From an uncultured Actinomycetota bacterium (GTDB lineage Bacteria > Actinomycetota > Actinomycetes > Propionibacteriales > Nocardioidaceae), in NCBI GenBank assembly GCA_963710895.1, contig CAVQCB010000017.1, positions 2,516 through 66,515 on the forward strand: a DNA stretch of 64,000 nucleotides, read 5' to 3'. The notes below the pieces were generated by a model. That model did not search any database, had not been told where the DNA came from, and was given only the letters and a program-made list of their open reading frames with translations. The first letter of the stretch is position 1. Each line of letters opens with the position of its first letter. The position numbers and the translations under genes are program-made. Below are positions 205 to 31,480 of this stretch, one piece after another.

Positions 205-236
205 TTGTCCACACCTGGGGACAACCCTGTGGAGAA
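205..236. promoter_or_regulatory. Pair of inverted DnaA-box-like 9-mers
   Basis: TTGTCCACA at 205-213 (+) and TTCTCCACA at 228-236 (-), versus the actinomycete consensus TT(G/A)TCCACA. Confidence 0.5.
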
Positions 237-262
237 CTACACCTGTGTAACTCGGCGGAGGA

Positions 263-331
263 CAGTTTCACTGGGTCCCCAGTGAAACTGCCACTTCCCG
301 TGCGTTGCGATGCACGGGAAGTGGCAGTTTC
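263..331. repeat. Overlapping palindromes (REP-like / bidirectional terminator)
   Basis: 13-bp IR 263-275/278-290 and 20-bp perfect IR 284-303/312-331, between convergent genes. Confidence 0.75.
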
Positions 332-432
332 GGACGGGAAGGATGGCCGTCGGCTGGACCGCGCGAGGGTGCCGGGCACGCAGGGCGGCCGGCCGGGTGC
401 GGACGCGGTACGACGCGGTCAGGCGCGCGCGG

Positions 433-900: not shown

Positions 901-980
901 GGTCGATCTCCTCTGTGCGGTGGACGCCGGCTCGTCGGCTAGCGTAGTCAAGGCACGTCCCCACGAGAGCAGGCGCCCCG

Positions 981-1748: not shown

Positions 1749-1799
1749 CCGAGCCGGGCACAGCCGGGTGTGCTCGCACCCGGCCGCCGAGAGCCGGGG

Positions 1800-3536: not shown

Positions 3537-3543
3537 CGAGGAC

Positions 3544-5181
3544 TCAGTCTCCCTTCTTCGTGCCGGCACCGGGGGTCTTGCCCGGACCAGGCTGCTTCGT
3601 CGTGCCGGCGCCGCGACCGGTGCCCGGGATCTTGGTGGAGCCCGCGTTCTTGGTGGAGCCCGCGTTCTTGGTGGCGCCGGTCGCGGGGGACTGGCCCGAG
3701 GCCCCGGGGGTGGTGGACTGGTTGCCCGAACTGGGGGTGCTGGACGGAGGCCCGTTGCCCGGGCTGTCGCTCTGGGAGGGCGTCTGCGGGGCCTGGGTCG
3801 GTGTCGGCGTGTCCGGCCCCGAGCCCCCGCCCTGGTCGGGGGCCGCACCCCACACCTGCAGGGTCACGGTGGTGCCCGGGTCCAGCTCCCCGGTCGGGCT
3901 GAGGTCGGCGACGGTGCCGGCCTCGTGGTCCCCGGAGTTGTCCACCTGGTCGGTGGTGGTCTTCAGCCCCTTGTCCTCCAGCGCAGCACGGGCGTCCTCG
4001 ACCGGCTTGCCGATGTAGTCCGCGGCGCGCACGGTCACCGTCTCGGCGCTGGGCGTGGCGGTGCCGGCGTCGTTGCCGGGGTCGGTGCCCGAGCCGCTCC
4101 CGGTCCACGGGTGGGTGACCAGCAGGAGGACCAGGACGAGAAGCACCAGGGCGCCTGCCGCGTAGAGCGGCCAGCGGCCGGACCGCTCCCGTGTCGTGGT
4201 GACCCGGGTCCCCGGTGTGTCGGCGATGTCCGGCGGAGCGTCCAGGGAGCCGGTGCCGGTGGGGGTGGCCGCGTTCGCCGGGGTGACCGCGGTGGCCGCT
4301 GCTGCCACCGGCGCGGCCATGGGAGCACCGATGACCTGGGTGTCGGCGGGGGGAGGCGCGGCCGCGGCGCCGGCGGACGGCGCCTCCCGCAGCGCGGCGG
4401 CCAGCTCCGCTCCGTCGGCGTAGCGCTCCTGGGCGTCCTTGGCCATGGCGCGCCGCACGACCGCGGCCAGGCCCGGGGGCACGTGGTCGGGCAGCGGGGG
4501 GATCTCCTGCTGGAGGTGCGCCAGCGCCGTGGTGATCGGGGTGTCGGCGTCGAAGGGCCGGTGGCCGGCCAGGCACTCGAAGAGCAGCACCCCGACGGCG
4601 TAGACGTCGCTGGCGGCGGTGGCGGTGTTGCCGCGTGCCTGCTCGGGGGAGAGGTAGTGGGGGGTGCCGAGGATCTGGCCGGTCTGGGTGTAGCCCGCCG
4701 CGCCGGTGGCACGCGCGATCCCGAAGTCGGTGATCTTCACCCGGCCGTCGGGGGTGACCAGCAGGTTGGCCGGCTTCACGTCGCGGTGCACGACGCCGGC
4801 CCGGTGCGCGACGGCCAGCGCCTCGGCGGCCTGCAGTGCCAGCAGTCGCGCCTGCTCGGGGTCGACGGGGCGGCCGTCGGCCAGCAGCTCCGAGAGCGGC
4901 TTGCCCTCGACGAGCTCCATCACGAGGTACGGCGTCTCGCCCTCCTCCAGGACGCCGTAGTCGAAGATGGCGGCGATGCCGGGATGGTGCAGTCCGGCGG
5001 CGTTGCGGGCCTCGTCGGCGAACCTGGCCCGGTAGGTCGGGTCGTGGGCGTACTCGTTCTTGAGCACCTTGACCGCCACCTCACGCCCCAGGACGGTGTC
5101 GCGCGCACGCCAGACCTGCCCCATGCCGCCGGTGGCGATCAGGTCGAGACGCTCGTAGCGCTCGCCGGAGTCGGGACGCAT
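3544..5181 (-). CDS. pknA: Ser/Thr protein kinase PknA-like (kinase, TM, one PASTA-like domain, low-complexity tail)
   Basis: IATGGMGQVW, HRDVKPAN, DFGIARA, GTPHYLSPEQ; start ATG 5181 or GTG 5190 overlapping the pbpA stop. Confidence 0.9.
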   Translation of the reverse strand: MRPDSGERYERLDLIATGGMGQVWRARDTVLGREVAVKVLKNEYAHDPTYRARFADEARNAAGLHHPGIAAIFDYGVLEEGETPYLVMELVEGKPLSELLADGRPVDPEQARLLALQAAEALAVAHRAGVVHRDVKPANLLVTPDGRVKITDFGIARATGAAGYTQTGQILGTPHYLSPEQARGNTATAASDVYAVGVLLFECLAGHRPFDADTPITTALAHLQQEIPPLPDHVPPGLAAVVRRAMAKDAQERYADGAELAAALREAPSAGAAAAPPPADTQVIGAPMAAPVAAAATAVTPANAATPTGTGSLDAPPDIADTPGTRVTTTRERSGRWPLYAAGALVLLVLVLLLVTHPWTGSGSGTDPGNDAGTATPSAETVTVRAADYIGKPVEDARAALEDKGLKTTTDQVDNSGDHEAGTVADLSPTGELDPGTTVTLQVWGAAPDQGGGSGPDTPTPTQAPQTPSQSDSPGNGPPSSTPSSGNQSTTPGASGQSPATGATKNAGSTKNAGSTKIPGTGRGAGTTKQPGPGKTPGAGTKKGD

Positions 5182-5186
5182 GTCGC

Positions 5187-6677
5187 TCACTTGCCGATCA
5201 CCGCCTCCATCACGGCCTTGGCGATCGGCGCGGCCAGGCCGCTGCCGGAGATCTGGTCGCGCGCCACCCCCGCGTCCTGGACCAGCACCGCCACGGCGAC
5301 CGCGGGGGTGTCGGCCGGTGCGAACGAGACGAACCAGGCGTACGGCGGCCGGTCGGGTGCGCTCTGGGCGGTGCCGGTCTTGCCGGCGACCTTGACCCCG
5401 GGGATCTGTGCGGTCGTGGCGGTGCCGCCGTCGACGACGGCGACCATCATCTGGCGCAGGTCGCGCGCGGACGCGGAGCTCATCGCCGGCTGGTCCGGCA
5501 TCGGCTCGGGAGCGGTGCTGTCGATGGTCTCGAGCTTGGGGGACTTGATCTCGTCGACGAGGTAGGGCTTCATCACCACCCCGTCGTTGGCGATGCCCGC
5601 CCCGACCATGGCCATCTGCAGCGGCGTGGCAGCGACGTCGAACTGGCCGATCGCGGAGAGCGCGGTCTGCGGCTTGTCGGGGTTCTCGGGGAAGCGGCTC
5701 ACCGCCTGCCGGGTGAGCGCGTCGTCGAGGTCGGTGAAGACGCGCTTGCCGAAGCCGAACTTCTCGGCGGTGGCGCGGATGGCGTCGTCGCCGATCTTCA
5801 GCCCCACCGCGCCGAAGGAGACGTTGCAGGAGACCTGGAGGGCCTTGGTCAAGGTGATCTGGTCGCCGCCGCAGGAGCCGCGGTTCTCGTTGACGAGGTC
5901 CTTGGTGGTCAGCGGCAGGTCGAGGCTGGCGCCTCCGGGCACCTTCGTGTCCGGGTTGTACTGACCGGAGTCCAGCGCCGCGGCGGCGGTCACCAGCTTG
6001 AAGGTCGACCCCGGCGGCAGCACCTCCTCGATGGCCCGGTTGTTCAACGGGCCCAGCTTGGCCTTCTCCAGCTGCCTCTTGGCCTTGCCGGCCGCGGTGA
6101 AGTCGTGGCTGGCCAGGCGGTTGGGGTTGTAGCTCGGGCTGGAGACCATCGCCAGGATCTTCCCGGTGCGGGGCTCGATGGCGACCACGGCTCCCTGGAC
6201 GTTGTCGCCCAGCGCCTTGAGGCCGTCGTACGCCGCCTTCTGCGCGTCGGGGTCCACGGTGAGGGTGACGCTGCCTCCCTTGGGGGACTCGTTGCCGACC
6301 AGGTCGATCACCCGGTTCACGAACAGCTTGGAGTCGCTGCCGGAGAGGATGGAGTTCTGCGATGCCTCGACACCACCGAGACCCCAGTCGCGGGAGAAGT
6401 AGCCGGTGAGGTGGGCGTACTCCTCGCCCTGGGGGTACTCGCGCTGGAACTTGTAGGCGTCGTCGGAGGCGTTGCTCTCGGCCACCGCCTTGCCGTGGAC
6501 CAGGATGGCGCCCCGCTCGCGGGAGAACTCGGCGTCGCGGACCCGCTTGTTGTCCGGGTGCTGGGAGAGCGAGGTGAGGTCGTCGGCCTTCCAGTACTGC
6601 ACGTAGCTGGCGTTGACCAGCAAGGCCAGGAACAGCAGCATGCAGGCGATCGAGAGGTTGCGGATGGGCCGGTTCAT
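5187..6677 (-). CDS. pbpA: Class B penicillin-binding protein PbpA
   Basis: PGSTFK (SxxK), SCN (SxN) and KTGT motifs; N-terminal TM; coupled to rodA. Confidence 0.95.
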   Translation of the reverse strand: MNRPIRNLSIACMLLFLALLVNASYVQYWKADDLTSLSQHPDNKRVRDAEFSRERGAILVHGKAVAESNASDDAYKFQREYPQGEEYAHLTGYFSRDWGLGGVEASQNSILSGSDSKLFVNRVIDLVGNESPKGGSVTLTVDPDAQKAAYDGLKALGDNVQGAVVAIEPRTGKILAMVSSPSYNPNRLASHDFTAAGKAKRQLEKAKLGPLNNRAIEEVLPPGSTFKLVTAAAALDSGQYNPDTKVPGGASLDLPLTTKDLVNENRGSCGGDQITLTKALQVSCNVSFGAVGLKIGDDAIRATAEKFGFGKRVFTDLDDALTRQAVSRFPENPDKPQTALSAIGQFDVAATPLQMAMVGAGIANDGVVMKPYLVDEIKSPKLETIDSTAPEPMPDQPAMSSASARDLRQMMVAVVDGGTATTAQIPGVKVAGKTGTAQSAPDRPPYAWFVSFAPADTPAVAVAVLVQDAGVARDQISGSGLAAPIAKAVMEAVIGK

Positions 6678-8089
6678 CGGATGCGCACCACCTGCGTGGC
6701 GTCGGCGTCGTAGCCCTCGCCAGGCTCCACCAGCTCCGGCGGAGGCCGGCGGGCATGGTCGGAGATGCGCAGCAGCAGGGCGATGATCGCCCAGTTGGCC
6801 ACCAGGCTGGAGCCGCCGTAGGACAGGAACGGGGTGGTCAGCCCGGTCAGCGGGATCAGCTTGGTGACGCCGCCGACGACCACGAAGACCTGGAGGGCGA
6901 AGACGACCGCGAGACCCGCGGCCATCAGCTTGCCGAGGTTGTCTCGGCAGATCAGGGCGGTGCGCAGACCGCGCTCCACGAGGATGCCGTAGAGCAGGAT
7001 GATCGCCATCACCCCGGTGAGCCCGAGCTCCTCACCCAGCGAGGGCAAGATGAAGTCGGAGTAGGAGTAGGGCGTGATCTGCGGGTTGCCCTGACCCAGC
7101 CCGCGGCCGACGAGGCCGCCCCAGGCCATGCCGTAGAGCCCCTGCACGATCTGGTAGGCGTTCGCGTCCGGGTTGAACGGGTCCAGCCAGGCCTGCACGC
7201 GCAGCTGCACGTGGCCCAGCGTCAGGTAGCCGAAGTAGGCACCGACGCCGAACAGGCTCCCGCCGACCAGCAGCCACCCCGGCCGCTCGGTGGCGACGTA
7301 GAGCATCACCAGGAACAGGCCGAAGAAGAGCAGCGATGACCCGAGGTCGTTCTGGAAGACCAGGATGCCCAGGGAGACCAGCCACATCGCCAGGATCGGA
7401 CCGAGGTCACGACCGCGGGGAAGGTCGACGAACAAGAAGCGGCGTCCGGCCAGCGCGAGCGCGTCGCGGTGCTGGACGAGGTAGCCGGCGAAGGCGACCA
7501 CGAGCAGCAGCTTGGCGATCTCGCCGGGCTGGAAGCTCATCGGACCGACGTGGATCCAGATCCGCGCGCCGTTGATGTTGCGGCCGATCCCGGGCAGCAG
7601 CGGCAGCAGCAGCAGCACGATCGCGGCGAGCCCCGCGGTGTAGGTGAACGCCTGCAGCCGGCGGTGGTCACGCAGGAGCACGATGACCGCGACGAAGAGC
7701 GCCACCCCGATCGTCATCCAGACCAGCTGGGTGCCGGCGAAGGTGCGGGCCTCGGCGTTGCGCGCCTGGTTGGCCAGGTCGATGCGGTGGATCATCGCCA
7801 GGCCGAGACCGTTGAGGGCGGAGACGATCGGCAGCAGGATCGGGTCGGCGTACGCCGCGAAGACCCGGATGACGACGTGGCAGCCGATCACCAGGACCGC
7901 CAGCCAGGCGCCGTAGGTGAACAGGTCGACCGGCGCCTCGCCGTCGACGCCGAAGCCGACGGCGGCGTAGGCGCCGATCCCGACCACCAGGCTGAGCAGC
8001 AGCAGGACCAGCTCGGCGCCGCGGCGGCGCCGGTGGACGAAGCCCATCAGGCCCTGGGCGGCCTGGGGGTTCATGCGCGCGCTGGTCAT
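6674..8089 (-). CDS. rodA: SEDS family protein RodA/FtsW
   Basis: FQPGEIAK, QNDLGS, SDFI...GEELG, GLTTPFLSYGGSSL; multi-TM; ATGA overlap with pstP stop. Confidence 0.95.
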   Translation of the reverse strand: MTSARMNPQAAQGLMGFVHRRRRGAELVLLLLSLVVGIGAYAAVGFGVDGEAPVDLFTYGAWLAVLVIGCHVVIRVFAAYADPILLPIVSALNGLGLAMIHRIDLANQARNAEARTFAGTQLVWMTIGVALFVAVIVLLRDHRRLQAFTYTAGLAAIVLLLLPLLPGIGRNINGARIWIHVGPMSFQPGEIAKLLLVVAFAGYLVQHRDALALAGRRFLFVDLPRGRDLGPILAMWLVSLGILVFQNDLGSSLLFFGLFLVMLYVATERPGWLLVGGSLFGVGAYFGYLTLGHVQLRVQAWLDPFNPDANAYQIVQGLYGMAWGGLVGRGLGQGNPQITPYSYSDFILPSLGEELGLTGVMAIILLYGILVERGLRTALICRDNLGKLMAAGLAVVFALQVFVVVGGVTKLIPLTGLTTPFLSYGGSSLVANWAIIALLLRISDHARRPPPELVEPGEGYDADATQVVRIR

Positions 8090-9516
8090 GGGACCTCGGC
8101 GCACACGTCGGGGGTGGGGGAGGGCGACGGCGACGCGTTCGGTGTGGCCGCGGCACTCGCACCGGCACGAGGGGTGCGCTTCGGGGTGGGGCTGGTCGTG
8201 GCCCCCGGGCTGCTGCCGGGCGTCGCGCCGGGGCTGGGGGTGACCGGCTCCGGGCACAGCGCCAGCCGCTCCAGACGGGTGACGATGCCGCGCGCGTCCT
8301 CGAGGCTGTCGGCGCTGATGCCGTCGCGCACCTGCCGTGCGTTGTAGTCCGGCAGGTCGGCCAGCTTCAGCTCGCTGGTCTCCTCGACGCGGTGGGTGGT
8401 GATGCCGGGCAGGTCGGCCTCGATGCCGCGGAACACCGCGACGGAGTCGCCGTCGCTGGCGACGTAGTACTGAACCTGCGACCACTTGTAGCCGGCGATC
8501 CCGATGACCGCGGCCAGCAGCACGACCACGGCGACCACGGCCAGGCGGCGTAGCCAGGCGAACCGTCGCGGCGGGCGGGGGGCGTAGCGCATCTCCTCGG
8601 GGTCGACCTCGTCCTCACCGGCGGAGTCCTCGACGGGGTCCAGCTCCCCGGTGTCGGTGGTGCGGGCCGCCCGGCCGGCGCCGATCCCCTTGCGACGGGG
8701 GGCCTGCGCGGCGGCGCCGACCACCACCGGGGCGAGCGCACCCGCGCCGGTGTCCGCCGAGCCGTCCCCCGGCCCGTCCCCCGGCCCGTCCCCCGGGCCG
8801 GCCACCGCGTCGTCGACCACGTCGGCGAGCACCACCGTGACGTTGTCGGTGCTGCCCGCCTCCAGGGAGGCCCGGACCAGCGCCGTGGCCGTCTCCTCGA
8901 GCGAGCCGGCGGCGAGGAGGCCGGCGAGGTCGTCGTCGGACAGGGACCCCGAGCAGCCGTCGGAGCAGAGCAGGATGCGGTCGCCGGGGGCCGCCTCGAG
9001 GGTGAACACGTCGGGCTCGGGCTCGTGCACGCCGTCCACGGCGCGGAGGATCAGGTTGCGGTGCGGGTGCACCCGGGCCTCGTCCTCGGTGATGCGGCCC
9101 TCGTCGATCAGGCTCTGCACGAACGTGTGGTCGGTGGTGAGCTGGGAGAGGGTGCCGTCGCGGAGCAGGTAGCCCCGGCTGTCGCCCACGTGGCCGACGC
9201 CGAGGGACTCCCCGTCGAAGACCACGGCCGTCACCGTCGTGCTGGTGCCCTCGATCTCGGGGCTCTCGTTGACCAGCCCGGCGATGCGGTCGTGGCTGCG
9301 GTGGATCGCGCCGGCCAGCGCGCCGAGCATGTCCTCACCGGGGTCCCGGTCGAGACGACGGAGCACCTCCACGGTGGCGCTGCTCGCGATGTCGCCTCGG
9401 GCCGAGCCGCCCACCCCGTCGGCGACGGCGAGCAGATGCGGTCCGGCGTACCCGGAGTCCTGGTTGTCACGGCGGACCCGCCCCACGTCCGACAGCGCCG
9501 CGTAGCGAAGCCTCAC
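8086..9516 (-). CDS. pstP: PP2C-family Ser/Thr phosphatase PstP
   Basis: SDVGRVRRDNQDS, AVADGVGG, HVGDSRGY, LLCSDG, GSTDNVTV; TM; GTGA overlap with fhaB stop. Confidence 0.95.
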   Translation of the reverse strand: MRLRYAALSDVGRVRRDNQDSGYAGPHLLAVADGVGGSARGDIASSATVEVLRRLDRDPGEDMLGALAGAIHRSHDRIAGLVNESPEIEGTSTTVTAVVFDGESLGVGHVGDSRGYLLRDGTLSQLTTDHTFVQSLIDEGRITEDEARVHPHRNLILRAVDGVHEPEPDVFTLEAAPGDRILLCSDGCSGSLSDDDLAGLLAAGSLEETATALVRASLEAGSTDNVTVVLADVVDDAVAGPGDGPGDGPGDGSADTGAGALAPVVVGAAAQAPRRKGIGAGRAARTTDTGELDPVEDSAGEDEVDPEEMRYAPRPPRRFAWLRRLAVVAVVVLLAAVIGIAGYKWSQVQYYVASDGDSVAVFRGIEADLPGITTHRVEETSELKLADLPDYNARQVRDGISADSLEDARGIVTRLERLALCPEPVTPSPGATPGSSPGATTSPTPKRTPRAGASAAATPNASPSPSPTPDVCAEVP

Positions 9517-10001
9517 TTGCGCAGCTCCAGGATCGTCTTGCCGATGCGGATCTGGGTGCCGAGCTGGAGCGCGGTGGCCTGGGAGATGCGGCTGCTGCCG
9601 ACGTAGGTGCCGTTGGTCGAGCCGAGGTCCTCGACGTACCACTGGTCACCCGAGCTGCCGATGCGGGCGTGCTTGGTGGAGACGTAGTCGTCGTCGAGCC
9701 GGATGGCGGCGTCGTTGCCGCGCCCGATCAGCAGGGGCGCCTCGTCCAGCGACACCGCCTCGCCCTGGTTGCCGCCCTCCACGATGACCACCTGGGTGGG
9801 CACCCCGCGCCTGGGACGGGACGCCTTCTGCTGCTTGCCTCGGGGACGCCGCTCCTGGCGCGACTGGCCGTGGCCTGAGTCCTGCCGGGCCACCCTGGCC
9901 CCGAACATGTCGGAGCGGATCACCGAGATGCAGGAGAGCACGAAGATCCACAGGATCGCCAGGTAGGCGAACCGGATCAGGACCAGGGTCAGCTCGGACA
10001 A
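9513..10001 (-). CDS. fhaB: FHA domain protein FhaB/FipA
   Basis: N-terminal TM; IGRG...VSTKHAR...DLGSTNGT FHA motif; TTG start. Confidence 0.93.
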   Translation of the reverse strand: MSELTLVLIRFAYLAILWIFVLSCISVIRSDMFGARVARQDSGHGQSRQERRPRGKQQKASRPRRGVPTQVVIVEGGNQGEAVSLDEAPLLIGRGNDAAIRLDDDYVSTKHARIGSSGDQWYVEDLGSTNGTYVGSSRISQATALQLGTQIRIGKTILELRK

Positions 10002-10004
10002 GCC

Positions 10005-10742
10005 TCAGTCACCCTCGTGTGCGGCGCCTGACCTCAGGCGCAGGGACATGGTCGTGTTGCCGATCCTGATCGTCGCACCATCGGCCAGCGTGGCCTTCTC
10101 GACTCGCTTGCCGTTGACCGAGACACCGTTGGTGGAGCCGAGGTCGTGGACGGTGATCCGTGGTGGGCCGCCGGCATCCTGGGCCTCCTCGACGCGGATC
10201 TCGATGTGCTTGCGCGAGACACCGGGGTCGTCGATGCGCAGGTCGGCGTCGTTGCCCCGGCCGATCACGATGCCCGGAGGTGCGAGGGGAAGTGGCTCCC
10301 CGTTGAGCTCGAGCGTCGCGGTGGCGCGGCGTACGGCGGTGTCGGTGGGGTCGCCGCCGGCCAGGCTGGAGCTGGCCTGCGAGCGGCTGCGCACGCGGAA
10401 CCGACCGGTGGTGAGCTCCTCGGTGGTCTCCAGGGTGATGCTGACCGGTCCGGTGAAGACGTAGGACTGCTCGGCGGCGTGCTCGCGCAGCATCTCGGTC
10501 AGCTCGCGGGTCAGCTGCGGACCCAGCCCTCCGAGCCGCTCGTGGTCGGTCTCGGAGAGCTCGACGTGGAAGTTGTTGGGCACCAGCCGGCGGTCGCGAC
10601 TGAGGATCTGCGCGGAGTTGTCGATCTCCCGGTTCAGCGCCGAGGCGATCTCGACCGGCTGCACGGCGCTGCGGAAGGTCCGGGCGAAGACACCGGAGAT
10701 GAGCTGCTCGAGCCGGCTCTCGAAACGCTGGAGTGCGCTCAT
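10005..10742 (-). CDS. fhaA: FhaA (DUF3662 + FHA)
   Basis: FESRLEQLISGVFARTFRSAVQPVEIA N-terminus; IGRG...VSRKH...DLGSTNG FHA domain. Confidence 0.93.
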   Translation of the reverse strand: MSALQRFESRLEQLISGVFARTFRSAVQPVEIASALNREIDNSAQILSRDRRLVPNNFHVELSETDHERLGGLGPQLTRELTEMLREHAAEQSYVFTGPVSITLETTEELTTGRFRVRSRSQASSSLAGGDPTDTAVRRATATLELNGEPLPLAPPGIVIGRGNDADLRIDDPGVSRKHIEIRVEEAQDAGGPPRITVHDLGSTNGVSVNGKRVEKATLADGATIRIGNTTMSLRLRSGAAHEGD

Positions 10743-10955
10743 GGTGCCTCCCCTCGGGGTCCGTCGGGTGGGTGGTGGTCCGGGCGGTCGTCGGTCGGTG
10801 CTGTGGCGTTCGTGGTGCGCGATGGTGCTCGCCCGCGCGGGCCTCCGGGCATCGGGCCCGAGCGGGCGTCCTGCGATGGTAGCGGGCGCCGGCGTCGCCC
10901 CGACGGCCGGTTTGGGTGGGTGAGACCGCGTGGGATAGCCTTACGTCCGCTTCAG

Positions 10956-11042
10956 GCGCGAGTGGCGGAATAGGCAGACGCGCACGGTTCAGGTCCGTGT
11001 GCCCGAGAGGGCGTGGGGGTTCAACTCCCCCCTCGCGCACCA
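10956..11042 (+). tRNA. tRNA-Leu (anticodon CAG)
   Basis: Acceptor GCGCGAG/CTCGCGC, anticodon arm CACGG-TTCAGGT-CCGTG, long variable arm, GGTTCAA T-loop, encoded A-CCA. Confidence 0.97.
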
Positions 11043-24409: not shown

Positions 24410-24922
24410 ATGAAGCTCTCACCCGACCCACGACGGTGGGGCCGCGCGGCCCTGCCGGCCACACTGCTCCTCGCGCTCGCCGCCACCCCGGCGGTGGCCG
24501 CCCGCCATGACGGCCACGTGACCACGGCCGGCCGGCACGGGACGACGCTCCGGTTCGTCGCCACCGACGAGCGGGGCAACATGACCGTCGAGGACCTGGG
24601 GCCCCCCTCCTCCGGCGGCCCGGGACAAGGCGACCTGGTCGCCTTCACCCAGGCCCTGCACCGGGGCGGGCACCTGGTCGGCACCGCCCACGTGACCGCG
24701 ATCGGTGTCGACGCCCGCCGGCACCTCTCCGAGGCCACCGGCACGCTTCGCATCCCCCACGGCACGCTCCAGGTGGCCGGGCTGGTCGCCCAGACGCCGC
24801 GGTTCGACCTCGCGGTCACCGGAGGCACCGGTCGCTACGTCGGCGCTCGCGGGACGATGCGCTTCGACGCCGCCAGCGGCACGCAGCGGATCATCGTGCA
24901 CCTGACCCGGGTGGGCCGCTGA
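24410..24922 (+). CDS. Secreted dirigent / allene-oxide-cyclase-like beta-barrel protein
   Basis: Signal peptide ending AVA-A; GDLVAF, FDLAVTGGTGRYVGARG. Confidence 0.7.
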   Translation: MKLSPDPRRWGRAALPATLLLALAATPAVAARHDGHVTTAGRHGTTLRFVATDERGNMTVEDLGPPSSGGPGQGDLVAFTQALHRGGHLVGTAHVTAIGVDARRHLSEATGTLRIPHGTLQVAGLVAQTPRFDLAVTGGTGRYVGARGTMRFDAASGTQRIIVHLTRVGR

Positions 24923-24923
24923 G

Positions 24924-25337
24924 ATGGCCGTCGTGCACGAGCCGACGGTCGCTGCGGGACTCCCTGCCGGCGCGCGCACCTACCTCGGGTACGCCGTGAC
25001 GGTCGTCCTGGCGGGTCAGGTGGGGCTGGTGATGACGGGTGTCTATCTCGACCAGCACCGGGTGGACGGCGGGACCCTCCTCGACCGGCACTCCTACATG
25101 GACAACGCGGGATCCGGTCTCGGGTGGCTGACCGGGTCGGTCCTGGCCCCGCTGCTCGCCCTCGCGCTGCTGGCGGTCGCCGCCGGCGCGCGCGCCAGGG
25201 CCGGTGGGGTGCTCGCGCTGACCCTGGTGGTCCTCGGCTGCACCGTCTACGGCCGCGACGTCCCGGTCCTCGGCCTGGTCCAGGGCGGGGCCAGCTGCCT
25301 GGCGCTGCTGCTCGCGGTCCGCGTGGCCCGCGAGTAG
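24924..25337 (+). CDS. Small membrane protein
   Basis: About 4 TM; starts 1 nt after the preceding stop. Confidence 0.65.
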   Translation: MAVVHEPTVAAGLPAGARTYLGYAVTVVLAGQVGLVMTGVYLDQHRVDGGTLLDRHSYMDNAGSGLGWLTGSVLAPLLALALLAVAAGARARAGGVLALTLVVLGCTVYGRDVPVLGLVQGGASCLALLLAVRVARE

Positions 25338-25422
25338 CCGCCTCCCCCGGGCACCGGACCACGGCTCCCGGGGTCGGGCGGTGCGCTCGGGGCCACCGCG
25401 CCGTCCCACTACGATCGCCAGG

Positions 25423-26241
25423 GTGCACACGCTGACCAGCCTGGAGGCCTACACCGACGAGGACGGCAACGAGGTCGTCTGCAGCGGCACCTACGAGAAG
25501 AACGTCAAGGTCGTCTTCCGCGGTCGGAACAACCGCGTCTCGGTGGCCGACGGCGCCAGGATCGACAAGCTCCAGGTGGTCTTCGACTGCGACAACGGCA
25601 CCCTGGAGATCGGGCACAACCGCAAGGTCAAGGGCGGGCTCTGGAGCATCCGGGTCGGGCAGGACGCCACCGTCTCGATCGGCAACAACGTCTCCTGCAC
25701 CGGGGTGTGCATCGTCTCCGCCGTGGAGGGGGTGACCGTGCGGATCGGCCACGACGTGATGATCGCCAGCCAGAACCAGATCCGCGCCGACGACGGACAC
25801 CCCATCTTCGACATCCACACCGAGAGGCGCGTGAACCCCGCCGAGTCGATCACGATCGGCAACCACGTCTGGCTGGCGCTCGGGTCCAGCGTGCTCGCGG
25901 GCGGGCACATCGGCGAGGGCAGCGTCATCGGCTACGGCTCCGTGGTCACCGGGAGGATCCCCAACAACTGCGTCGCGGTGGGCACGCCGGCCCGTGTCGT
26001 ACGCCGCGACATTGCCTGGGAGCGTCCGCACCTGTCCTACCGGGAGCCGTTCTACAAGCCGGACGCCTCGACGGTGCAGAAGTCGCGCTACTGGAACCCG
26101 ACGGTCGAGGACCCGCCCCAGGAGCGGGACGGCCGCCGCAACACGCAGGACTCGCCGCTGCGCCGGCTGGCCCGCCGGGTCGTGAACCGGGCACGCCAGC
26201 GCGCGCCCCTCTCGGCGCGAGGGCGACTGCGGGGCCGCTGA
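25423..26241 (+). CDS. Hexapeptide-repeat (LbH) O-acyltransferase
   Basis: ITIGNHVWLALGSSVLAGGHIGEGSVIG...VGTPARVV; leaderless GTG 7 nt after TACGAT. Confidence 0.88.
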   Translation: MHTLTSLEAYTDEDGNEVVCSGTYEKNVKVVFRGRNNRVSVADGARIDKLQVVFDCDNGTLEIGHNRKVKGGLWSIRVGQDATVSIGNNVSCTGVCIVSAVEGVTVRIGHDVMIASQNQIRADDGHPIFDIHTERRVNPAESITIGNHVWLALGSSVLAGGHIGEGSVIGYGSVVTGRIPNNCVAVGTPARVVRRDIAWERPHLSYREPFYKPDASTVQKSRYWNPTVEDPPQERDGRRNTQDSPLRRLARRVVNRARQRAPLSARGRLRGR

Positions 26242-26285
26242 GCGGGCGCGGTGCCCGGTTCTGGGGGTGCGGGTTTGTAGCATCG

Positions 26286-27620
26286 AGCGATGCGTCGGGA
26301 GATCCAGGGGCTGCGTGCGGTGGCTGTGCTTCTGGTGGTGTTGTTCCATCTGTGGCCGAATCGGGTGCCGGGTGGGTATGTCGGGGTTGATGTCTTCTTT
26401 GTGATCTCGGGGTTCTTGATCACTTCCTTGGTGGTGCGGGAGGTGGATCGGACGGGGTCGGTGAGCCTGGCGCGGTTCTGGGCTCGGCGGGTGCGGCGGT
26501 TGTTGCCGGCGGCGTACCTGGTGTTGGTGGTCTCCGGGGTGGCGGTGCTGGTGTGGGTGCCGCGGTTGGTGTGGCAGCAGTTCTTCGGGGAGATCTTGGC
26601 TGCGGGTCTGTATGTGGAGAACTGGACGTTGGCGGTCAACTCGGTGGACTACCTGGCTGCGGAGAACGCGGCTTCGCCGGCGCAGCACTACTGGACGCTC
26701 TCGGCCGAGGAGCAGTTCTACGTGGTGTGGCCGTTGCTGGTGCTGGTGGGGGTGTGGCTGGCGCGGCGCCGGGCGGTCTCGCGGGGGGTTCGCGCTGCTG
26801 GCGGGGCTGCTGGTGGGGCTGCTGGTGGGGGGTCTCGTGGTGCGGTGCTGGGGGTGCTGGTGGTCGCGGTGGTGGCCTCGTTGGGGTACTCGTTGTGGAT
26901 CACCGCGACGAATCCGGCGTGGGCCTACTTCGTGACGCCGGCGCGGGCGTGGGAGTTCGGGTCGGGGGCGTTGTTGGCGTTCGCTCCGGGGGTCGCGGGC
27001 TGGTTGGGGCTCGGGGTGCGGGCGGTGCTGGGCTGGGTGGGCCTGGGGGTGTTGGTGGGGTGTGCGCTGGTCTTCGATGCGGGCACGCCGATGCCGGGGA
27101 CGGCTGCGGTGGTGGTGGTCGTGGCCTCGGCGGTGTTGATCTGGGTGGAGGCGCCGGGGGTGTGGTGGTCCTCCTCGCGGTTGTTGGTGCTGGGCCCGGC
27201 CCGGTATCTGGGGGACATCTCCTACTCGGTGTATCTGTGGCACTGGCCGTTGATCATCGTGTTGCCCTATGTGACCGATCATGGGTTGACCACGGTGGAC
27301 AAGGTCTCGATCCTGATGGCCACGGTGGGGCTCTCGGCGTTGACCAAGCGGTTCGTGGAGGATCCGGTGCGGGCTGCGCGGCGCTTCGGGTTGGCGCGGC
27401 CGCGGGTGACGTTCGCCTGGGCCGTGGTGGGGGCGGTGGTGTTGACGGTGGTGTGTGTGGTGCCGCGCCAGGAGGTGGCCGACCAGGTCGCGCAGACCGA
27501 GCGGGTGGCGGCACGGTTGGCGGCGCAGCGGCCGCCGTGCTTCGGTGCCGCGGCGCGCGACCCCGAGGCCAGCGGCTGTCCCAACCCCGACCTCGCGAAC
27601 ACCCTGGTCCCCAGCCCCGA
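26286..27620 (+). repeat. 1335-bp direct repeat, copy A (partner 28398-29732)
   Basis: Identical where read by eye; shadow ORFs on both strands recur identically at offset 2112. Confidence 0.9.
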
Positions 27621-28386
27621 GGCGGTCAAGGAGGACTGGCCGCAGTACGAGCGCTGCGTGGAGCCGCTCCTCGCGGACCCGTTGCGGCCCTGCCACTTCG
27701 GTGACCCGAAGGCCGACGTGCCGCACGTCGCGGTGATCGGGGACTCCCACGCCCGGGTGATGATGACCATGGTCGAGGAGATGGTGAAGGCCGGACAGCT
27801 CACCGCCGACATGTTCGTCATCGGCGGCTGCCCGTGGTCCACGCAGCCGATGAGCACCAAGTCCCCCGTCGGGCTGCGGTGCACCGAGTTCCGCAAGAAG
27901 CTCTTCCCGCTGCTCGACCGCACGGCCACGCGCTACGACGCGATGCTGACCACCAACCGCCTCACGATCATGAAGGGCTCCCACCGGGCGCGGGTCCGAG
28001 GGCTGTCGCAGGCCTGGAGCCGGGTGACCAAGCAGGGGGTGCCGGTGATGGTCCTGCGCGACAACCCGCAGCACAAGAACCCCGACCTGAACCCGCAGCT
28101 GTGCCTGGCGCAGGTCTCGATCCAGGAGGCCAACCAGAAGTGCGCGCTGGACCGCCACGAACGGCTCGAGCAGTGGTTCGACGCGCTGTCCATCGCGGCC
28201 CGGCGGACCCCGGGCGCCGAGGTGATCGACCTGACCCCGTTCTACTGCGACGAGAAGACGTGCCCGGTGGTGATCGGCGGCGTGAACGTCTACCTCGACA
28301 ACAACCACCTCTCGGTCACCTACGCACGCACGCTGGCGCCGTACCTCTACAAGGCGATGGTCGCCCACGGGATCCTGCACCCCTGA
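26290..28386 (+). CDS. AT3-SGNH fused O-acyltransferase, copy 1 (OafA/OatA-like)
   Basis: REIQGLRAVAV, GYVGVDVFFVISGFLI, HYWTLSAEEQFY, SYSVYLWHWP; SGNH GDSH and DNNH; leaderless after TAGCAT. Confidence 0.95.
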   Translation: MRREIQGLRAVAVLLVVLFHLWPNRVPGGYVGVDVFFVISGFLITSLVVREVDRTGSVSLARFWARRVRRLLPAAYLVLVVSGVAVLVWVPRLVWQQFFGEILAAGLYVENWTLAVNSVDYLAAENAASPAQHYWTLSAEEQFYVVWPLLVLVGVWLARRRAVSRGVRAAGGAAGGAAGGGSRGAVLGVLVVAVVASLGYSLWITATNPAWAYFVTPARAWEFGSGALLAFAPGVAGWLGLGVRAVLGWVGLGVLVGCALVFDAGTPMPGTAAVVVVVASAVLIWVEAPGVWWSSSRLLVLGPARYLGDISYSVYLWHWPLIIVLPYVTDHGLTTVDKVSILMATVGLSALTKRFVEDPVRAARRFGLARPRVTFAWAVVGAVVLTVVCVVPRQEVADQVAQTERVAARLAAQRPPCFGAAARDPEASGCPNPDLANTLVPSPEAVKEDWPQYERCVEPLLADPLRPCHFGDPKADVPHVAVIGDSHARVMMTMVEEMVKAGQLTADMFVIGGCPWSTQPMSTKSPVGLRCTEFRKKLFPLLDRTATRYDAMLTTNRLTIMKGSHRARVRGLSQAWSRVTKQGVPVMVLRDNPQHKNPDLNPQLCLAQVSIQEANQKCALDRHERLEQWFDALSIAARRTPGAEVIDLTPFYCDEKTCPVVIGGVNVYLDNNHLSVTYARTLAPYLYKAMVAHGILHP

Positions 28387-28397
28387 GTGGTGCGCTC

Positions 28398-29732
28398 AGC
28401 GATGCGTCGGGAGATCCAGGGGCTGCGTGCGGTGGCTGTGCTTCTGGTGGTGTTGTTCCATCTGTGGCCGAATCGGGTGCCGGGTGGGTATGTCGGGGTT
28501 GATGTCTTCTTTGTGATCTCGGGGTTCTTGATCACTTCCTTGGTGGTGCGGGAGGTGGATCGGACGGGGTCGGTGAGCCTGGCGCGGTTCTGGGCTCGGC
28601 GGGTGCGGCGGTTGTTGCCGGCGGCGTACCTGGTGTTGGTGGTCTCCGGGGTGGCGGTGCTGGTGTGGGTGCCGCGGTTGGTGTGGCAGCAGTTCTTCGG
28701 GGAGATCTTGGCTGCGGGTCTGTATGTGGAGAACTGGACGTTGGCGGTCAACTCGGTGGACTACCTGGCTGCGGAGAACGCGGCTTCGCCGGCGCAGCAC
28801 TACTGGACGCTCTCGGCCGAGGAGCAGTTCTACGTGGTGTGGCCGTTGCTGGTGCTGGTGGGGGTGTGGCTGGCGCGGCGCCGGGCGGTCTCGCGGGGGG
28901 TTCGCGCTGCTGGCGGGGCTGCTGGTGGGGCTGCTGGTGGGGGGTCTCGTGGTGCGGTGCTGGGGGTGCTGGTGGTCGCGGTGGTGGCCTCGTTGGGGTA
29001 CTCGTTGTGGATCACCGCGACGAATCCGGCGTGGGCCTACTTCGTGACGCCGGCGCGGGCGTGGGAGTTCGGGTCGGGGGCGTTGTTGGCGTTCGCTCCG
29101 GGGGTCGCGGGCTGGTTGGGGCTCGGGGTGCGGGCGGTGCTGGGCTGGGTGGGCCTGGGGGTGTTGGTGGGGTGTGCGCTGGTCTTCGATGCGGGCACGC
29201 CGATGCCGGGGACGGCTGCGGTGGTGGTGGTCGTGGCCTCGGCGGTGTTGATCTGGGTGGAGGCGCCGGGGGTGTGGTGGTCCTCCTCGCGGTTGTTGGT
29301 GCTGGGCCCGGCCCGGTATCTGGGGGACATCTCCTACTCGGTGTATCTGTGGCACTGGCCGTTGATCATCGTGTTGCCCTATGTGACCGATCATGGGTTG
29401 ACCACGGTGGACAAGGTCTCGATCCTGATGGCCACGGTGGGGCTCTCGGCGTTGACCAAGCGGTTCGTGGAGGATCCGGTGCGGGCTGCGCGGCGCTTCG
29501 GGTTGGCGCGGCCGCGGGTGACGTTCGCCTGGGCCGTGGTGGGGGCGGTGGTGTTGACGGTGGTGTGTGTGGTGCCGCGCCAGGAGGTGGCCGACCAGGT
29601 CGCGCAGACCGAGCGGGTGGCGGCACGGTTGGCGGCGCAGCGGCCGCCGTGCTTCGGTGCCGCGGCGCGCGACCCCGAGGCCAGCGGCTGTCCCAACCCC
29701 GACCTCGCGAACACCCTGGTCCCCAGCCCCGA
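28398..29732 (+). repeat. 1335-bp direct repeat, copy B
   Basis: As copy A; identity ends at ...CCCAGCCCCGA. Confidence 0.9.
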
Positions 29733-30504
29733 CGCCGCGGCCACCGGCTACCCGCACTACCCGGAGTGCAGGGAGGAGCTGCAGGGCCATCCGCTGCGAC
29801 CGTGCCGGTTCGGCACGCCCCGGCCCGGCGTCCCGCACGTCGCCGTCGTCGGGGACTCCCACGCCCGGCTGCTGATGACCATGGTCGAGGAGCTGGTGAA
29901 GGCCGGACAGGTCACCGCCGACCTGCTGGTGCACGAGGGGTGCGCCTGGAGCAGCGAGCCACCGCCGGTGCACAACGGGGTGGGCATCGACTGCGGGAAG
30001 TACCGCCGAGAGCTGGTGCCGCTCCTGCAGCGGACGGCGACCGACTACGACGCCGTCCTCACCAGCGCGAGGATCACCGCGATCCAGATGCGCGGCCGCC
30101 CGGGACCGCACGTCGACGGGCTCGTCGACGCCTGGAGCCGGGTGACCCGCCAAGGGGTGCCGGTGGGCGTGCTCCGAGACAACCCGCAGGGGGAGGACCC
30201 CGAGGTCAACCCCAACCTCTGCCTGGCGAAGGTCTCGGTCCAGGAGGCCAACCAGAAGTGCGCCCTGAACCGGCACGACCACCTCGACGCCTGGTTCGAC
30301 GTGCTCTCCGCGGCGGCGCGGCGCACCCCGGGCGCCGAGGTGATCGACCTGACCCCGTTCTACTGCGACGAGAAGACGTGCCCGGTGGTGATCGGCGGCG
30401 TGGACGTCTACCTCGACCACAACCACCTGACCGCGACCTACGCGCGCACGCTGGCGCCGTACCTCTACCAGGCGCTGCGCCGCACGGGCGTGCTCACCGG
30501 GTGA
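28402..30504 (+). CDS. AT3-SGNH fused O-acyltransferase, copy 2
   Basis: Same AT3 domain; divergent SGNH with GDSH and DHNH; ATG 15 nt after the copy 1 stop. Confidence 0.95.
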   Translation: MRREIQGLRAVAVLLVVLFHLWPNRVPGGYVGVDVFFVISGFLITSLVVREVDRTGSVSLARFWARRVRRLLPAAYLVLVVSGVAVLVWVPRLVWQQFFGEILAAGLYVENWTLAVNSVDYLAAENAASPAQHYWTLSAEEQFYVVWPLLVLVGVWLARRRAVSRGVRAAGGAAGGAAGGGSRGAVLGVLVVAVVASLGYSLWITATNPAWAYFVTPARAWEFGSGALLAFAPGVAGWLGLGVRAVLGWVGLGVLVGCALVFDAGTPMPGTAAVVVVVASAVLIWVEAPGVWWSSSRLLVLGPARYLGDISYSVYLWHWPLIIVLPYVTDHGLTTVDKVSILMATVGLSALTKRFVEDPVRAARRFGLARPRVTFAWAVVGAVVLTVVCVVPRQEVADQVAQTERVAARLAAQRPPCFGAAARDPEASGCPNPDLANTLVPSPDAAATGYPHYPECREELQGHPLRPCRFGTPRPGVPHVAVVGDSHARLLMTMVEELVKAGQVTADLLVHEGCAWSSEPPPVHNGVGIDCGKYRRELVPLLQRTATDYDAVLTSARITAIQMRGRPGPHVDGLVDAWSRVTRQGVPVGVLRDNPQGEDPEVNPNLCLAKVSVQEANQKCALNRHDHLDAWFDVLSAAARRTPGAEVIDLTPFYCDEKTCPVVIGGVDVYLDHNHLTATYARTLAPYLYQALRRTGVLTG

Positions 30505-31417
30505 GGTCGGGGCGCACGCCGGTCTCGGCCTCCGAGAGGTCCCACAGCCTGGCGGCGAGCTCCTCGTCGCGGGCGTGCCGGCTCAGCTTCGCCGGGCCCA
30601 GGCGGCCCCGGCTCTCCATCAGCCACTGCGGGCCCACGTAGGAGCCGGGCTCGCCGTAGGTCGCCGCCCACAGGGTCGGGTTGGCGCCGGCGGCCGAGGA
30701 CTGGAAGACCACGGGCAGCAGGTAGGGCGCTACCGCGCGCACGACCGGGTTGGCGCCCATGCCGTCGGAGGAGCCCACCAGGTTGGTCGCCGACACACCG
30801 GGGTGCGCGGCCGTCGAGACCAGCCGGGACCCGGCGGCCTCGGCGCGGCGAGACAGCTCGAAGGCGAAGAGCAGGTTGGCCAGCTTGCTGTTGCCGTAGG
30901 CCTTCTGCGGCTCGTACGACGACTCCGGGTTGGCCTCGAGCACGGACTCGTCGCCGCGGTGGTGCGCGATCGAGGCCACCGTCACGACGCGGGGCGAGGG
31001 GGCCTTCAACAGCGCCGGCAGCAGCAGCCCGGTCAGTGCGAAGTGCCCGAGGTGGTTGGTGCCGAACTGCAGCTCGTGGCCCTCGGCGGTCTCGCGATAG
31101 CGCGGCGGGGTCATCACCCCGGCGTTGTTGACCAGCAGGTCGAGCGCACCATCGAAGCGGTCGGCGAAGGCGTGCACGGAGGTCTGCGAGGCCAGGTCGA
31201 GCTCCTCGACCGTGCTGACCCCCTTGATCTTCTTGGCGACCTCACGGCCGGCCTCGGTGTTGCGGCAGGCGAGCACCACCTCGGCGCCGTGGTCGGCCAG
31301 CGCCGCGGCGGTGTGGTAGCCGATGCCGGAGTTGGCGCCGGTGACCACGGCCCGGGTGCCGGAGAGGTCGGGCAGGTCACGCGGCTTGAAGCCGGGCAGG
31401 GAGGGGTCCTGGGTCAT
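30494..31417 (-). CDS. Short-chain dehydrogenase (retinol-DH/WWOX-like SDR)
   Basis: VTGANSGIG, NNAGVM, FGTNHLGHFALT, YGNSK. Confidence 0.92.
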   Translation of the reverse strand: MTQDPSLPGFKPRDLPDLSGTRAVVTGANSGIGYHTAAALADHGAEVVLACRNTEAGREVAKKIKGVSTVEELDLASQTSVHAFADRFDGALDLLVNNAGVMTPPRYRETAEGHELQFGTNHLGHFALTGLLLPALLKAPSPRVVTVASIAHHRGDESVLEANPESSYEPQKAYGNSKLANLLFAFELSRRAEAAGSRLVSTAAHPGVSATNLVGSSDGMGANPVVRAVAPYLLPVVFQSSAAGANPTLWAATYGEPGSYVGPQWLMESRGRLGPAKLSRHARDEELAARLWDLSEAETGVRPDLTR

Positions 31418-31438
31418 CTGTGCTCCTGTGTGTCGTGT

Positions 31439-31480
31439 GGTCCGGGTCGTGCGGCCCGGGTCTTGCGGTCCGGGTCTCGC
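31439..31480. repeat. 3 x 14-bp imperfect tandem repeat
   Basis: GGTCCGGGTCGTGC / GGCCCGGGTCTTGC / GGTCCGGGTCTCGC. Confidence 0.75.

What the first reader, a model, noticed from the sequence alone, without database searches (positions are those of the whole stretch)
26286..30402. Tandem AT3-SGNH paralogs: identical flanks enclosing a swappable SGNH core
Seen: 1335 bp apparently identical (26286-27620 vs 28398-29732), then about 590 bp of strongly diverged SGNH core with catalytic GDSH and DxxH kept, then a second identical 78-bp patch (28207-28284 vs 30325-30402). Inference: ongoing gene conversion keeps the membrane acyl-donor module constant while acceptor-recognition domains diversify. The identical blocks also permit recombination that deletes one copy, amplifies the unit or exchanges cores, giving a possible phase-variable cassette system for surface O-acylation.
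Basis: partly seen in the sequence, partly recalled or inferred. Interest (0 to 1): 0.8.

Follow-up and report, generated by a model that had tools for sequence, protein, structure and literature searches.

The report
Tandem acyltransferase genes, partly homogenised
Two neighbouring genes for membrane-bound sugar O-acyltransferases share an exactly identical front part because one copy recently overwrote the other, which is ordinary gene conversion and not a switching system, but that shared part has lost most of its replaceable cytosines on one DNA strand and nothing I tested explains why.

Summary
Window 26286-27620 and 28398-29732 are 1335/1335 identical. The SGNH cores are 70% identical in DNA and 65% in protein. 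A 78-nt identical patch follows. Both genes are intact AT3-SGNH O-acyltransferases of the OafA/OafB/OatA type, in a Nocardioidaceae genome.

Congeners with the same downstream gene order carry one copy, and none of 102 other species genomes of the genus shows a tandem pair. The two SGNH parts differ as much (dS about 0.5-0.6) as this genome differs from its congeners at flanking genes (dS 0.41-0.59).

Best reading: an old, lineage-specific tandem duplication, followed by very recent gene conversion of the membrane domain plus two short tracts.

Selection for a constant donor module is not shown. The SGNH differences follow the family's normal variability (omega about 0.6, as between species).

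A phase-variable cassette system is not supported. There are no extra cassettes and no recombinase, and it does not recur in relatives.

Unexpected: codons 1-400 of both copies have lost coding-strand C. C>G and C>T make up 109 of 131 lineage-specific changes. These are the most skewed 1-kb windows of the genome. The cause is unknown. The scan has judged gene conversion between tandem SGNH genes in other genomes as ordinary.

The parts
26290..28386 (+). Copy 1, an AT3-SGNH O-acyltransferase gene (698 aa). H20, RRVRR 66-70, S486, D670 and H673 are present.
   Evidence: ORF and translation. Pfam PF01757 (94.5 bits) and PF19040 (103 bits). AF2 model with pLDDT 93.2. Best PDB fold match is OafB 6SE1.
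28402..30504 (+). Copy 2, an AT3-SGNH O-acyltransferase gene (700 aa). It is in the same reading frame as copy 1, because the unit is 2112 nt = 704 codons.
   Evidence: It is 87% identical to copy 1 overall.
26286..27620 (+). Homogenised block, copy 1 (from -4 of the ATG to codon 444). It covers all 11 TM helices and the first half of the periplasmic linker.
   Evidence: 100% identical to 28398-29732. 638 polymorphic sites match in a row.
28398..29732 (+). Homogenised block, copy 2.
27621..28206 (+). Diverged core X. It comprises the second half of the linker (SGNH extension), block I, the block II loop and helices up to aa 639.
   Evidence: 70.1% nt identity to 29733-30324. dS 0.64, dN 0.36. 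Nearest relatives are other species' orthologs at up to 70% aa.
29733..30324 (+). Diverged core Y, which sits on a longer branch and has no close relative.
   Evidence: The best match outside this genome is 64%.
28207..28284 (+). Second conversion tract, copy 1 (aa 640-665). The partner is 30325-30402.
   Evidence: 78/78 identical. 41 polymorphic sites match, P < 1e-4. Orthologs are 79-84% identical here.
30325..30402 (+). Second conversion tract, copy 2.
28121..28145 (+). Probable third short tract (aa 611-619). The partner is 30239-30263.
   Evidence: 25-nt exact run. 19 polymorphic sites match, P = 0.002.
28387..28401 (+). 15-nt spacer between the genes. The duplication junction lies at 28397|28398, and the 11 nt after the stop loosely resemble the 11 nt after the stop of copy 2.
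   Evidence: Sequence.
26290..27490 (+). Coding-strand C-depleted zone of copy 1 (codons 1 to about 400, the membrane domain). The same zone lies at 28402-29602 in copy 2.
30494..31480 (-). Convergent short-chain dehydrogenase gene, which overlaps the end of copy 2 by 11 nt. It is the conserved downstream neighbour in all relatives examined.
   Evidence: Pfam. Synteny.

Best explanation
A single AT3-SGNH O-acyltransferase gene, at a locus conserved across the genus, was duplicated in tandem in this lineage. The unit is 2112 nt, running from 4 nt before the ATG to 11 nt after the stop. The duplication is old: the SGNH parts have synonymous divergence as large as that between this species and its congeners. 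Since then, RecA-type gene conversion between the two direct repeats has repeatedly copied stretches from one copy to the other. The latest event overwrote the whole membrane (AT3) domain and half of the linker, running leftwards to the end of homology. Shorter tracts lie in the C-terminal third of the SGNH domain. The central SGNH core and the second half of the linker escape conversion, either because they are now too different (about 70% nt identity) to support it or because converted variants are selected against. Both genes remain intact and are probably co-transcribed. They most likely acylate two different extracytoplasmic glycan acceptors, or two positions on one acceptor, using the same membrane acyl-donor channel. 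Shown: the mosaic, the single-copy state in relatives, and the integrity of both genes. Inferred: the conversion mechanism, co-transcription, and the difference in acceptor.
For: The identity is exact over 1335 nt, against 70% in the core. The permutation test supports three tracts. Between aa 600 and 680, c1-c2 identity (0.82-1.0) exceeds c1/c2-ortholog identity (0.65-0.84). Between aa 445 and 600 it is equal or lower. Six syntenic relatives carry one copy upstream of the same SDR-ACAD-AKR-ROK genes (one of them interrupted by frameshifts). None of 102 other species genomes of the genus shows a tandem pair. X-Y dS is 0.51-0.64, against 0.41-0.59 for flanking genes between species. The tails after the 78-nt patch differ at 17 of 102 nt, so the duplication itself is not recent. 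An X-Y sister relation is not rejected (AU p = 0.46 for the whole domain, 0.19 for the core). Both copies keep all 58 invariant family residues (103-sequence alignment), and they depart equally from consensus (13 vs 12 of 125 columns). Bacterial conversion tracts are known to run up to the bounds of homology (PMC5485169).
Against: No reads or second assembly could be consulted. Perfect identity could therefore be slightly overstated by consensus or polishing, and copy number could vary. The trees are unresolved, so X and Y are not positively shown to be sisters. X groups weakly with other species' orthologs (92/86 support), which also fits a xenologous origin of one copy. No relative retains a tandem pair that would date the duplication.
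Confidence: 0.7

Rival explanations
1. One copy is a xenolog. A second AT3-SGNH gene from another member of the genus was inserted next to the resident gene, and gene conversion then homogenised the AT3 part.
For: X-Y divergence equals between-species divergence. The X core groups with orthologs P0025/P0034 (support 92/86), while Y sits on a long separate branch. The gene is accessory in the genus, with 28 of 102 genomes holding a match.
Against: The arrangement is a clean head-to-tail unit of exactly one gene, with loosely similar sequence after both stop codons. No mobile-element genes lie nearby. The AU tests do not reject X-Y sisterhood. This rival still requires the same later gene conversion.
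Confidence: 0.13
2. The tandem duplication is recent, and the SGNH core of one copy was later replaced by homologous recombination with foreign DNA.
For: Identity begins exactly at the duplication junction. The flanks around a diverged core are identical, and the X core resembles other species' orthologs.
Against: The 102-nt tails and the post-stop spacer also differ (83% identity). They would be identical after a recent duplication unless the import ran past the gene end, where a donor offers no homology. Recombination with a donor at about 75-80% nt identity would be very inefficient. The AT3 flank is especially unlike any sampled ortholog at synonymous sites.
Confidence: 0.08
3. Assembly artefact. 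Either the true copies differ slightly and were collapsed to one consensus, or the tandem structure or its copy number is wrong.
For: No read evidence is available. The assembly shows strain-level heterogeneity, with contig ends overlapping at 99.0-99.9% identity.
Against: The junction sequence at 28387-28401 is unique and joins the X tail to the AT3 start, which an artefact would have to invent. Contig-end overlaps of 5-18 kb indicate a long-read assembly, in which a 2.1-kb unit is spanned by single reads. An artefact cannot turn 70-80% identity into 100%, and both ORFs are intact.
Confidence: 0.05
4. A programmed, phase-variable cassette system that swaps, deletes or amplifies SGNH cores to vary surface O-acylation.
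For: The direct 1335-nt repeats would permit RecA-mediated deletion or amplification in principle. A G-quadruplex-prone cluster lies in the block.
Against: The genome holds no silent or extra cassettes. There is no recombinase, invertible element or significant inverted repeat nearby. The arrangement does not recur in 102 other species genomes of the genus. A deletion would lose one core for good, so the switch would not be reversible.
Confidence: 0.03

Closest known systems
OafA/OafB (Salmonella O-antigen acetyltransferases) and OatA (peptidoglycan O-acetyltransferase): fused AT3-SGNH acyltransferases
   Same: Both Pfam domains are present. So are the TMH1 His, the GG-Y-xGV-D loop, the RxxR motif and the Ser-Asp-His triad. 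There are 11 helices with an outside SGNH domain and conserved Cys pairs. The best fold match is OafB 6SE1 (PMC7448272).
   Different: Sequence identity to solved structures is too low for phmmer to detect. The acceptor is unknown and the gene is not in a glycan locus. Here there are two tandem copies with an identical AT3 part.
Lactobacillus plantarum OatA and OatB
   Same: Two AT3-SGNH paralogs in one genome share a topology and have different acceptors, MurNAc versus GlcNAc (PMC3482227). This is a precedent for paralogs that differ in acceptor specificity.
   Different: Neither tandem arrangement nor gene conversion is stated in the passages read of that paper. A specificity difference between X and Y is only inferred here.
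Concerted evolution by gene conversion of bacterial paralogs (for example tufA/tufB in Salmonella)
   Same: Non-reciprocal homogenisation of duplicated genes, with tracts limited by the bounds of homology (PMC5485169, PMC6053082).
   Different: Here conversion is partial and follows a domain boundary, leaving a core at between-species divergence. The copies are adjacent direct repeats. The converted block carries a strand-specific loss of C, which to my knowledge has not been reported for such cases.
Polymorphic-toxin loci (Rhs/CDI) with orphan C-terminal cassettes
   Same: A constant 5' block followed by variable 3' ends, which allows tips to be exchanged by homologous recombination. This same genome has such a locus, with a 993-nt identical block.
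   Different: Both AT3-SGNH genes are full length with their own start codons. There are no truncated orphans and only two cores.
Neisseria pilE/pilS antigenic variation
   Same: Gene conversion changes part of a surface-related gene, and a G-quadruplex motif lies near the converted DNA (my own knowledge).
   Different: There are no silent donor cassettes, and the converted part is the conserved domain rather than the variable one. There is no evidence of programmed events.

Membership tests
AT3-SGNH fused O-acyltransferases (OafA/OafB/OatA type) | Acyl_transf_3 domain (PF01757) above Pfam's cut-off | tested here: met
   94.5 and 94.6 bits against a cut-off of 31.
AT3-SGNH fused O-acyltransferases (OafA/OafB/OatA type) | C-terminal SGNH domain of the AT3-fused type (PF19040) | tested here: met
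   103 and 99.8 bits against a cut-off of 27.
AT3-SGNH fused O-acyltransferases (OafA/OafB/OatA type) | Essential membrane-domain residues: TMH1 His, the GG-F/Y-xGV-D loop and the RxxR motif (PMC7448272) | tested here: met
   H20, G28 G29 Y30 G32 V33 D34, and R67/R69/R70 are invariant in 103 homologs that include both copies.
AT3-SGNH fused O-acyltransferases (OafA/OafB/OatA type) | Ser-Asp-His triad (block I GDS, block V DxxH) | tested here: met
   S486, D670 and H673 in copy 1; S486, D672 and H675 in copy 2.
AT3-SGNH fused O-acyltransferases (OafA/OafB/OatA type) | Polytopic membrane domain followed by an alpha/beta/alpha SGNH fold resembling OafB or OatA | tested here: met
   AF2 model with pLDDT 93.2 and pTM 0.88. 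Top Foldseek hit is 6SE1 with E = 9e-5 and TM 0.54, followed by PatB structures.
AT3-SGNH fused O-acyltransferases (OafA/OafB/OatA type) | O-acyl transfer to an extracytoplasmic glycan, and the identity of the acceptor | not testable with these tools
   The neighbours are regulators and redox enzymes, not glycan genes.
Concerted evolution by gene conversion | Paralogs far more alike over a tract than over the rest, and more alike than either is to orthologs | tested here: met
   100% identity in the tract, 70% in the core, and 78-85% to orthologs within the tract.
Concerted evolution by gene conversion | Tract length beyond chance at polymorphic sites | tested here: met
   Runs of 638, 41 and 19 sites, with P < 1e-4, < 1e-4 and 0.002.
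Concerted evolution by gene conversion | The duplicate structure is real in the DNA molecule | not testable with these tools
No other assembly holds the sequence. Only indirect support comes from the long-read-like assembly.
Phase-variable or cassette-switching surface systems | Additional silent or partial cassettes that can donate variable parts | tested here: not met
   The genome holds only the two copies plus one paralog at 41% identity. No other copy of the block appears in a self-BLAST.
Phase-variable or cassette-switching surface systems | A dedicated recombinase, invertible segment or slippery tract that controls expression | tested here: not met
   Neighbouring genes. Only weak inverted repeats of 71-76% complementarity. 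The 12-nt repeat is in frame.
Phase-variable or cassette-switching surface systems | Alternative arrangements within a population | not testable with these tools

The most novel reading that the evidence does not exclude
The C loss in the homogenised membrane block is a footprint of strand-polarised biased gene conversion or repair between the tandem copies. In actinobacteria, mismatch recognition by NucS/EndoMS is limited to G/T, G/G and T/T, so the two possible heteroduplexes at any difference are treated unequally (keto-keto is seen, amino-amino is not). If the same strand always enters the heteroduplex, repeated conversion would drive one strand towards G and T. This would be a new, natural, local driver of sequence evolution in bacteria, and it would change protein sequence as well (L>V, A>G, A>V).
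Probability: 0.12. Interest if true: 0.8.

Novelty: new variant of a known kind. Interest (0 to 1): 0.5.

Why it matters
As a case of partial concerted evolution, this pair shows how a two-domain surface-modifying enzyme can keep one shared membrane module while holding two different outer domains. That makes it a natural starting point for domain-swap tests of what sets acceptor specificity in AT3-SGNH enzymes. The linker half that Pearson et al. tie to specificity is among the most diverged parts here. The wider interest lies in the converted block. About three quarters of its ancestral four-fold C sites were replaced on one strand only, in equal parts by G and T, and amino-acid changes follow the same direction. 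If this is tied to recombination between the repeats, it offers a way to study strand-biased repair or conversion in bacteria that use NucS instead of MutS/MutL.

Tried and rejected
- Other assemblies: exact-pattern scans of metagenome contigs (junction and block start) and of genome contigs found nothing. The protein search found nothing closer than 72% identity, so no population or sister-strain comparison was possible.
- Per-domain trees: all three G000 parts fall in an unresolved polytomy. The AU tests neither support nor reject X-Y sisterhood. Domain trees of the family are broadly congruent, so widespread domain shuffling is not indicated.
- Positive selection: pairwise omega is 0.57-0.75, below 1 and equal to between-species values. 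Site tests are impossible with two sequences.
- C loss as an AT3 or membrane-domain property: rejected. Four other AT3 genes of the same genome and 10 orthologs are normal.
- C loss as a codon-usage effect: unlikely, because nonsynonymous changes show it too.
- C loss as a general by-product of any repeat: other repeats in the genome lack it.
- Chi-like octamers (GCTGGTGG occurs 4 times in the block): judged a by-product of G/T-rich Leu-Val codons.
- The antisense long ORFs (24835-28380 and 28396-30426) are typical high-GC artefacts.
- Promoter and terminator scans were uninformative.
- phmmer against PDB sequences found nothing. The fold search was needed.


Full report
**Observation**

Repeat finding and base-by-base extension confirm that 26286-27620 and 28398-29732 are identical over 1335 nt, at a spacing of 2112 nt. 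The next 586/592 nt are 70.1% identical with a 6-nt indel. Then 28207-28284 equals 30325-30402 (78/78). The last 102 nt are 83% identical. 0/1335 differences against 171/586 gives p = 1.6e-97.

I ran a GENECONV-style permutation on sites that are polymorphic among the two copies and five orthologs.
- The main tract is a run of 638 matching sites (P < 1e-4).
- The patch is a run of 41 sites (P < 1e-4 within the SGNH part).
- A third tract at aa 611-619 is a run of 19 sites (P = 0.002).
- A block around GDSH (aa 493-503) is not significant and reflects protein conservation.

**The genes**

Copy 1 (26290-28386, 698 aa) and copy 2 (28402-30504, 700 aa) both match Pfam Acyl_transf_3 and the AT3-fused SGNH domain well above cut-off. 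They are 87% identical overall, 100% over aa 1-444 and 65% after that.

In an alignment of 103 homologs, both copies keep every invariant residue (residue roles from PMC7448272).
- The TMH1 His (H20).
- The GGY-GVD loop.
- The RxxR arginines.
- Ten Cys residues in the linker and SGNH domain.
- S486 and the DxxH pair.

The AF2 model is confident (pLDDT 93.2). It shows the polytopic domain ending in a long helix at 371-412, a linker, and an alpha/beta/alpha domain. The best PDB match is the OafB periplasmic domain 6SE1, followed by PatB structures.

The unit is 704 codons, so the two genes are in the same frame. They are separated by TGA and five codons.

**Context and relatives**

Named hits point to Nocardioidaceae, mostly labelled Marmoricola, and the best is only 72% identical. 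Downstream lie a convergent SDR, which overlaps copy 2 by 11 nt, then ACAD, AKR and ROK genes. Upstream lie a two-component system and small proteins.

Six congeners have the same downstream order with one AT3-SGNH gene; in one of them (G014) that gene is interrupted by frameshifts. Among 102 other species genomes of the genus, 28 have a match and none shows a tandem pair. The genome itself holds only the two copies and one paralog at 41% identity. Self-BLAST finds no further copy of the block.

**Age**

| Comparison | dS |
|---|---|
| X vs Y, whole SGNH part | 0.51 |
| X vs Y, core only | 0.64 |
| Flanking ACAD, AKR and SDR, this genome vs congeners | 0.41-0.59 |
| X or Y vs orthologous SGNH domains | 0.50-0.85 |

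The two cores therefore separated about when this lineage separated from the sampled species.

Omega is about 0.6, within the 0.3-0.77 seen for this domain between species. The AT3 domain evolves more slowly, with omega 0.17-0.45.

X-Y differences concentrate at family-variable columns: 65% of the least conserved columns differ, against 5% of the most conserved. Both copies depart equally from consensus. Both therefore look functional, and there is no special signal of diversifying selection.

The trees place X, Y and the shared AT3 in one unresolved polytomy. X-Y sisterhood is not rejected, with AU p = 0.46 and 0.19. Y has the longer branch (0.50 vs 0.20 in the core).

**Reading**

The mosaic is the signature of gene conversion between old tandem paralogs.
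- The left edge of identity is the duplication junction, as expected if tracts run to the bounds of homology (PMC5485169).
- Between aa 600 and 680 the copies are more alike than either is to orthologs. Between aa 445 and 600 they are not. This points to several events.
- A recent duplication with an imported core is unlikely, because the tails and the post-stop spacer are also diverged.
- A xenologous origin of one copy cannot be excluded, but it needs the same later conversion.
- The claim that conversion serves to keep the donor module constant is not needed. The slower AT3 domain simply stays convertible.
- The second half of the linker is among the most diverged parts. In OafA/OafB this SGNH extension influences acceptor specificity (PMC7448272). 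That fits different acceptors for X and Y, as for OatA and OatB of L. plantarum (PMC3482227), but it remains inference.

**Cassette and phase variation**

I found no extra cassettes, no recombinase, no meaningful inverted repeats and no recurrence in relatives. Any long direct repeat can delete or amplify, and nothing here indicates more than that.

**Assembly**

Contig ends overlap over 5-18 kb at 99.0-99.9% identity, mostly through substitutions. This is typical of a long-read assembly with strain heterogeneity. Such reads span a 2.1-kb unit, and the junction sequence is unique, so the structure is probably right. Exact identity and copy number remain unverified.

**Unexpected feature**

In codons 1-400 of both copies, third positions are G 0.68, C 0.21, T 0.11 and A 0.00. 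Orthologs have C 0.46-0.49 and G 0.42-0.47, and the SGNH part of the same genes has C 0.50.

| Measure | Result |
|---|---|
| Lineage-specific changes vs the majority of five orthologs | 109 of 131 are C>G (59) or C>T (50); G>C 7, G>A 3 |
| Same, vs ten orthologs | 47 + 47, against G>C 4 (G>A below the six commonest classes) |
| Synonymous sites, C loss vs G loss | 56 vs 2 (p = 1e-14) |
| Nonsynonymous sites, C loss vs G loss | 17 vs 3 (p = 0.003) |
| Ancestral four-fold C sites (57) | 14 remain C |
| TTG as share of Leu codons | 49-51% here; 3% in orthologs; 0-2% in the four other AT3 genes of this genome |

The bias at nonsynonymous sites argues for a directional pressure and against codon choice. 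The eight most keto-skewed of 18,492 1-kb windows in the genome all lie in the two copies.

The zone ends at about codon 400, the end of the last membrane helix. That is 130 nt before the identity ends. The linker part of the tract and the short SGNH tracts lack the skew.

C>G is the rarest substitution class in an actinobacterial mutation-accumulation study (PMC6159521), so ordinary mutation does not explain it. NucS is present in this genome and cuts only G/T, G/G and T/T mismatches (PMC6159521). That suggests strand-polarised biased repair of heteroduplex between the copies. This idea is untested, and the mismatch between the skew boundary and the tract boundary counts against a simple link. 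Other repeats in the genome do not show the skew.

**Verdict**

It is a clean but ordinary case of partial gene conversion between tandem AT3-SGNH paralogs. The scan has judged similar conversions between tandem SGNH genes in other genomes as ordinary. The switching-system reading is unsupported. The unexplained one-strand C loss in the converted block raises the interest to moderate.

Noticed in passing
window 26290-27490 and 28402-29602: Extreme coding-strand loss of C (to G and T in equal parts) confined to the membrane domain of both copies. These are the most strand-skewed 1-kb windows of the 3.7-Mb genome. The skew is absent from 10 orthologs and from the four other AT3 genes of this genome.
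   Followed up: yes
L047:6154-9203 (G000 contig C1:234153-237202): An Rhs/YD-repeat toxin gene with an EndoU nuclease tip is followed by an orphan EndoU cassette (L047:7764-8552). Two ORFs (L047:6410-7468 and 8467-9504), which have no Pfam match, share a 993-nt exactly identical 5' block and have unrelated 3' ends. An LRR protein gene follows. This is a classical polymorphic-toxin layout in a lower-GC island.
   Followed up: partly
window 26794-26832 (and 28906-28944): An in-frame 12-nt tandem repeat (GCTGCTGG[C/T]GGG, 3 units) encodes AAGG-AAGG-AAGG in a low-confidence loop of the AT3 domain (AF2 block 171-180, pLDDT 54). This loop is shorter in orthologs.
   Followed up: no
window 26945-27065 (and 29057-29177): A dense cluster of G-quadruplex-type motifs (G3+N1-7, 4 runs) lies on the coding strand inside the homogenised block. 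Such motifs are rare elsewhere in the window. This may simply follow from the G enrichment.
   Followed up: no
window 1-11037 (contig C17:1-13552): The start of this contig duplicates the end of contig C18 at 99.89% identity (10 mismatches, 5 gap positions). Several other contig ends overlap at 99.0-99.9%, which suggests a long-read assembly of a slightly heterogeneous population.
   Followed up: partly
window 28384-28404: The two genes are in the same reading frame, separated only by TGA and five sense codons (GTG GTG CGC TCA GCG). Read-through would join them, but the topology of such a fusion looks incompatible with function.
   Followed up: no
window 29746-29748 (copy 2, codon 449): Y has Gly where 98% of 101 homologs, and X, have Asp (D449, in the linker/SGNH extension). 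This is the only X-Y difference at a column with more than 95% conservation.
   Followed up: no
L044 (G086:C5:96092-99847): The single-copy ortholog of another species has AT-richer third positions in its AT3 domain (T 0.18, A 0.08) than in its SGNH domain (T 0.02, A 0.01). Its substitutions are symmetric, unlike the C loss here. The codon alignment of this row may be unreliable.
   Followed up: no
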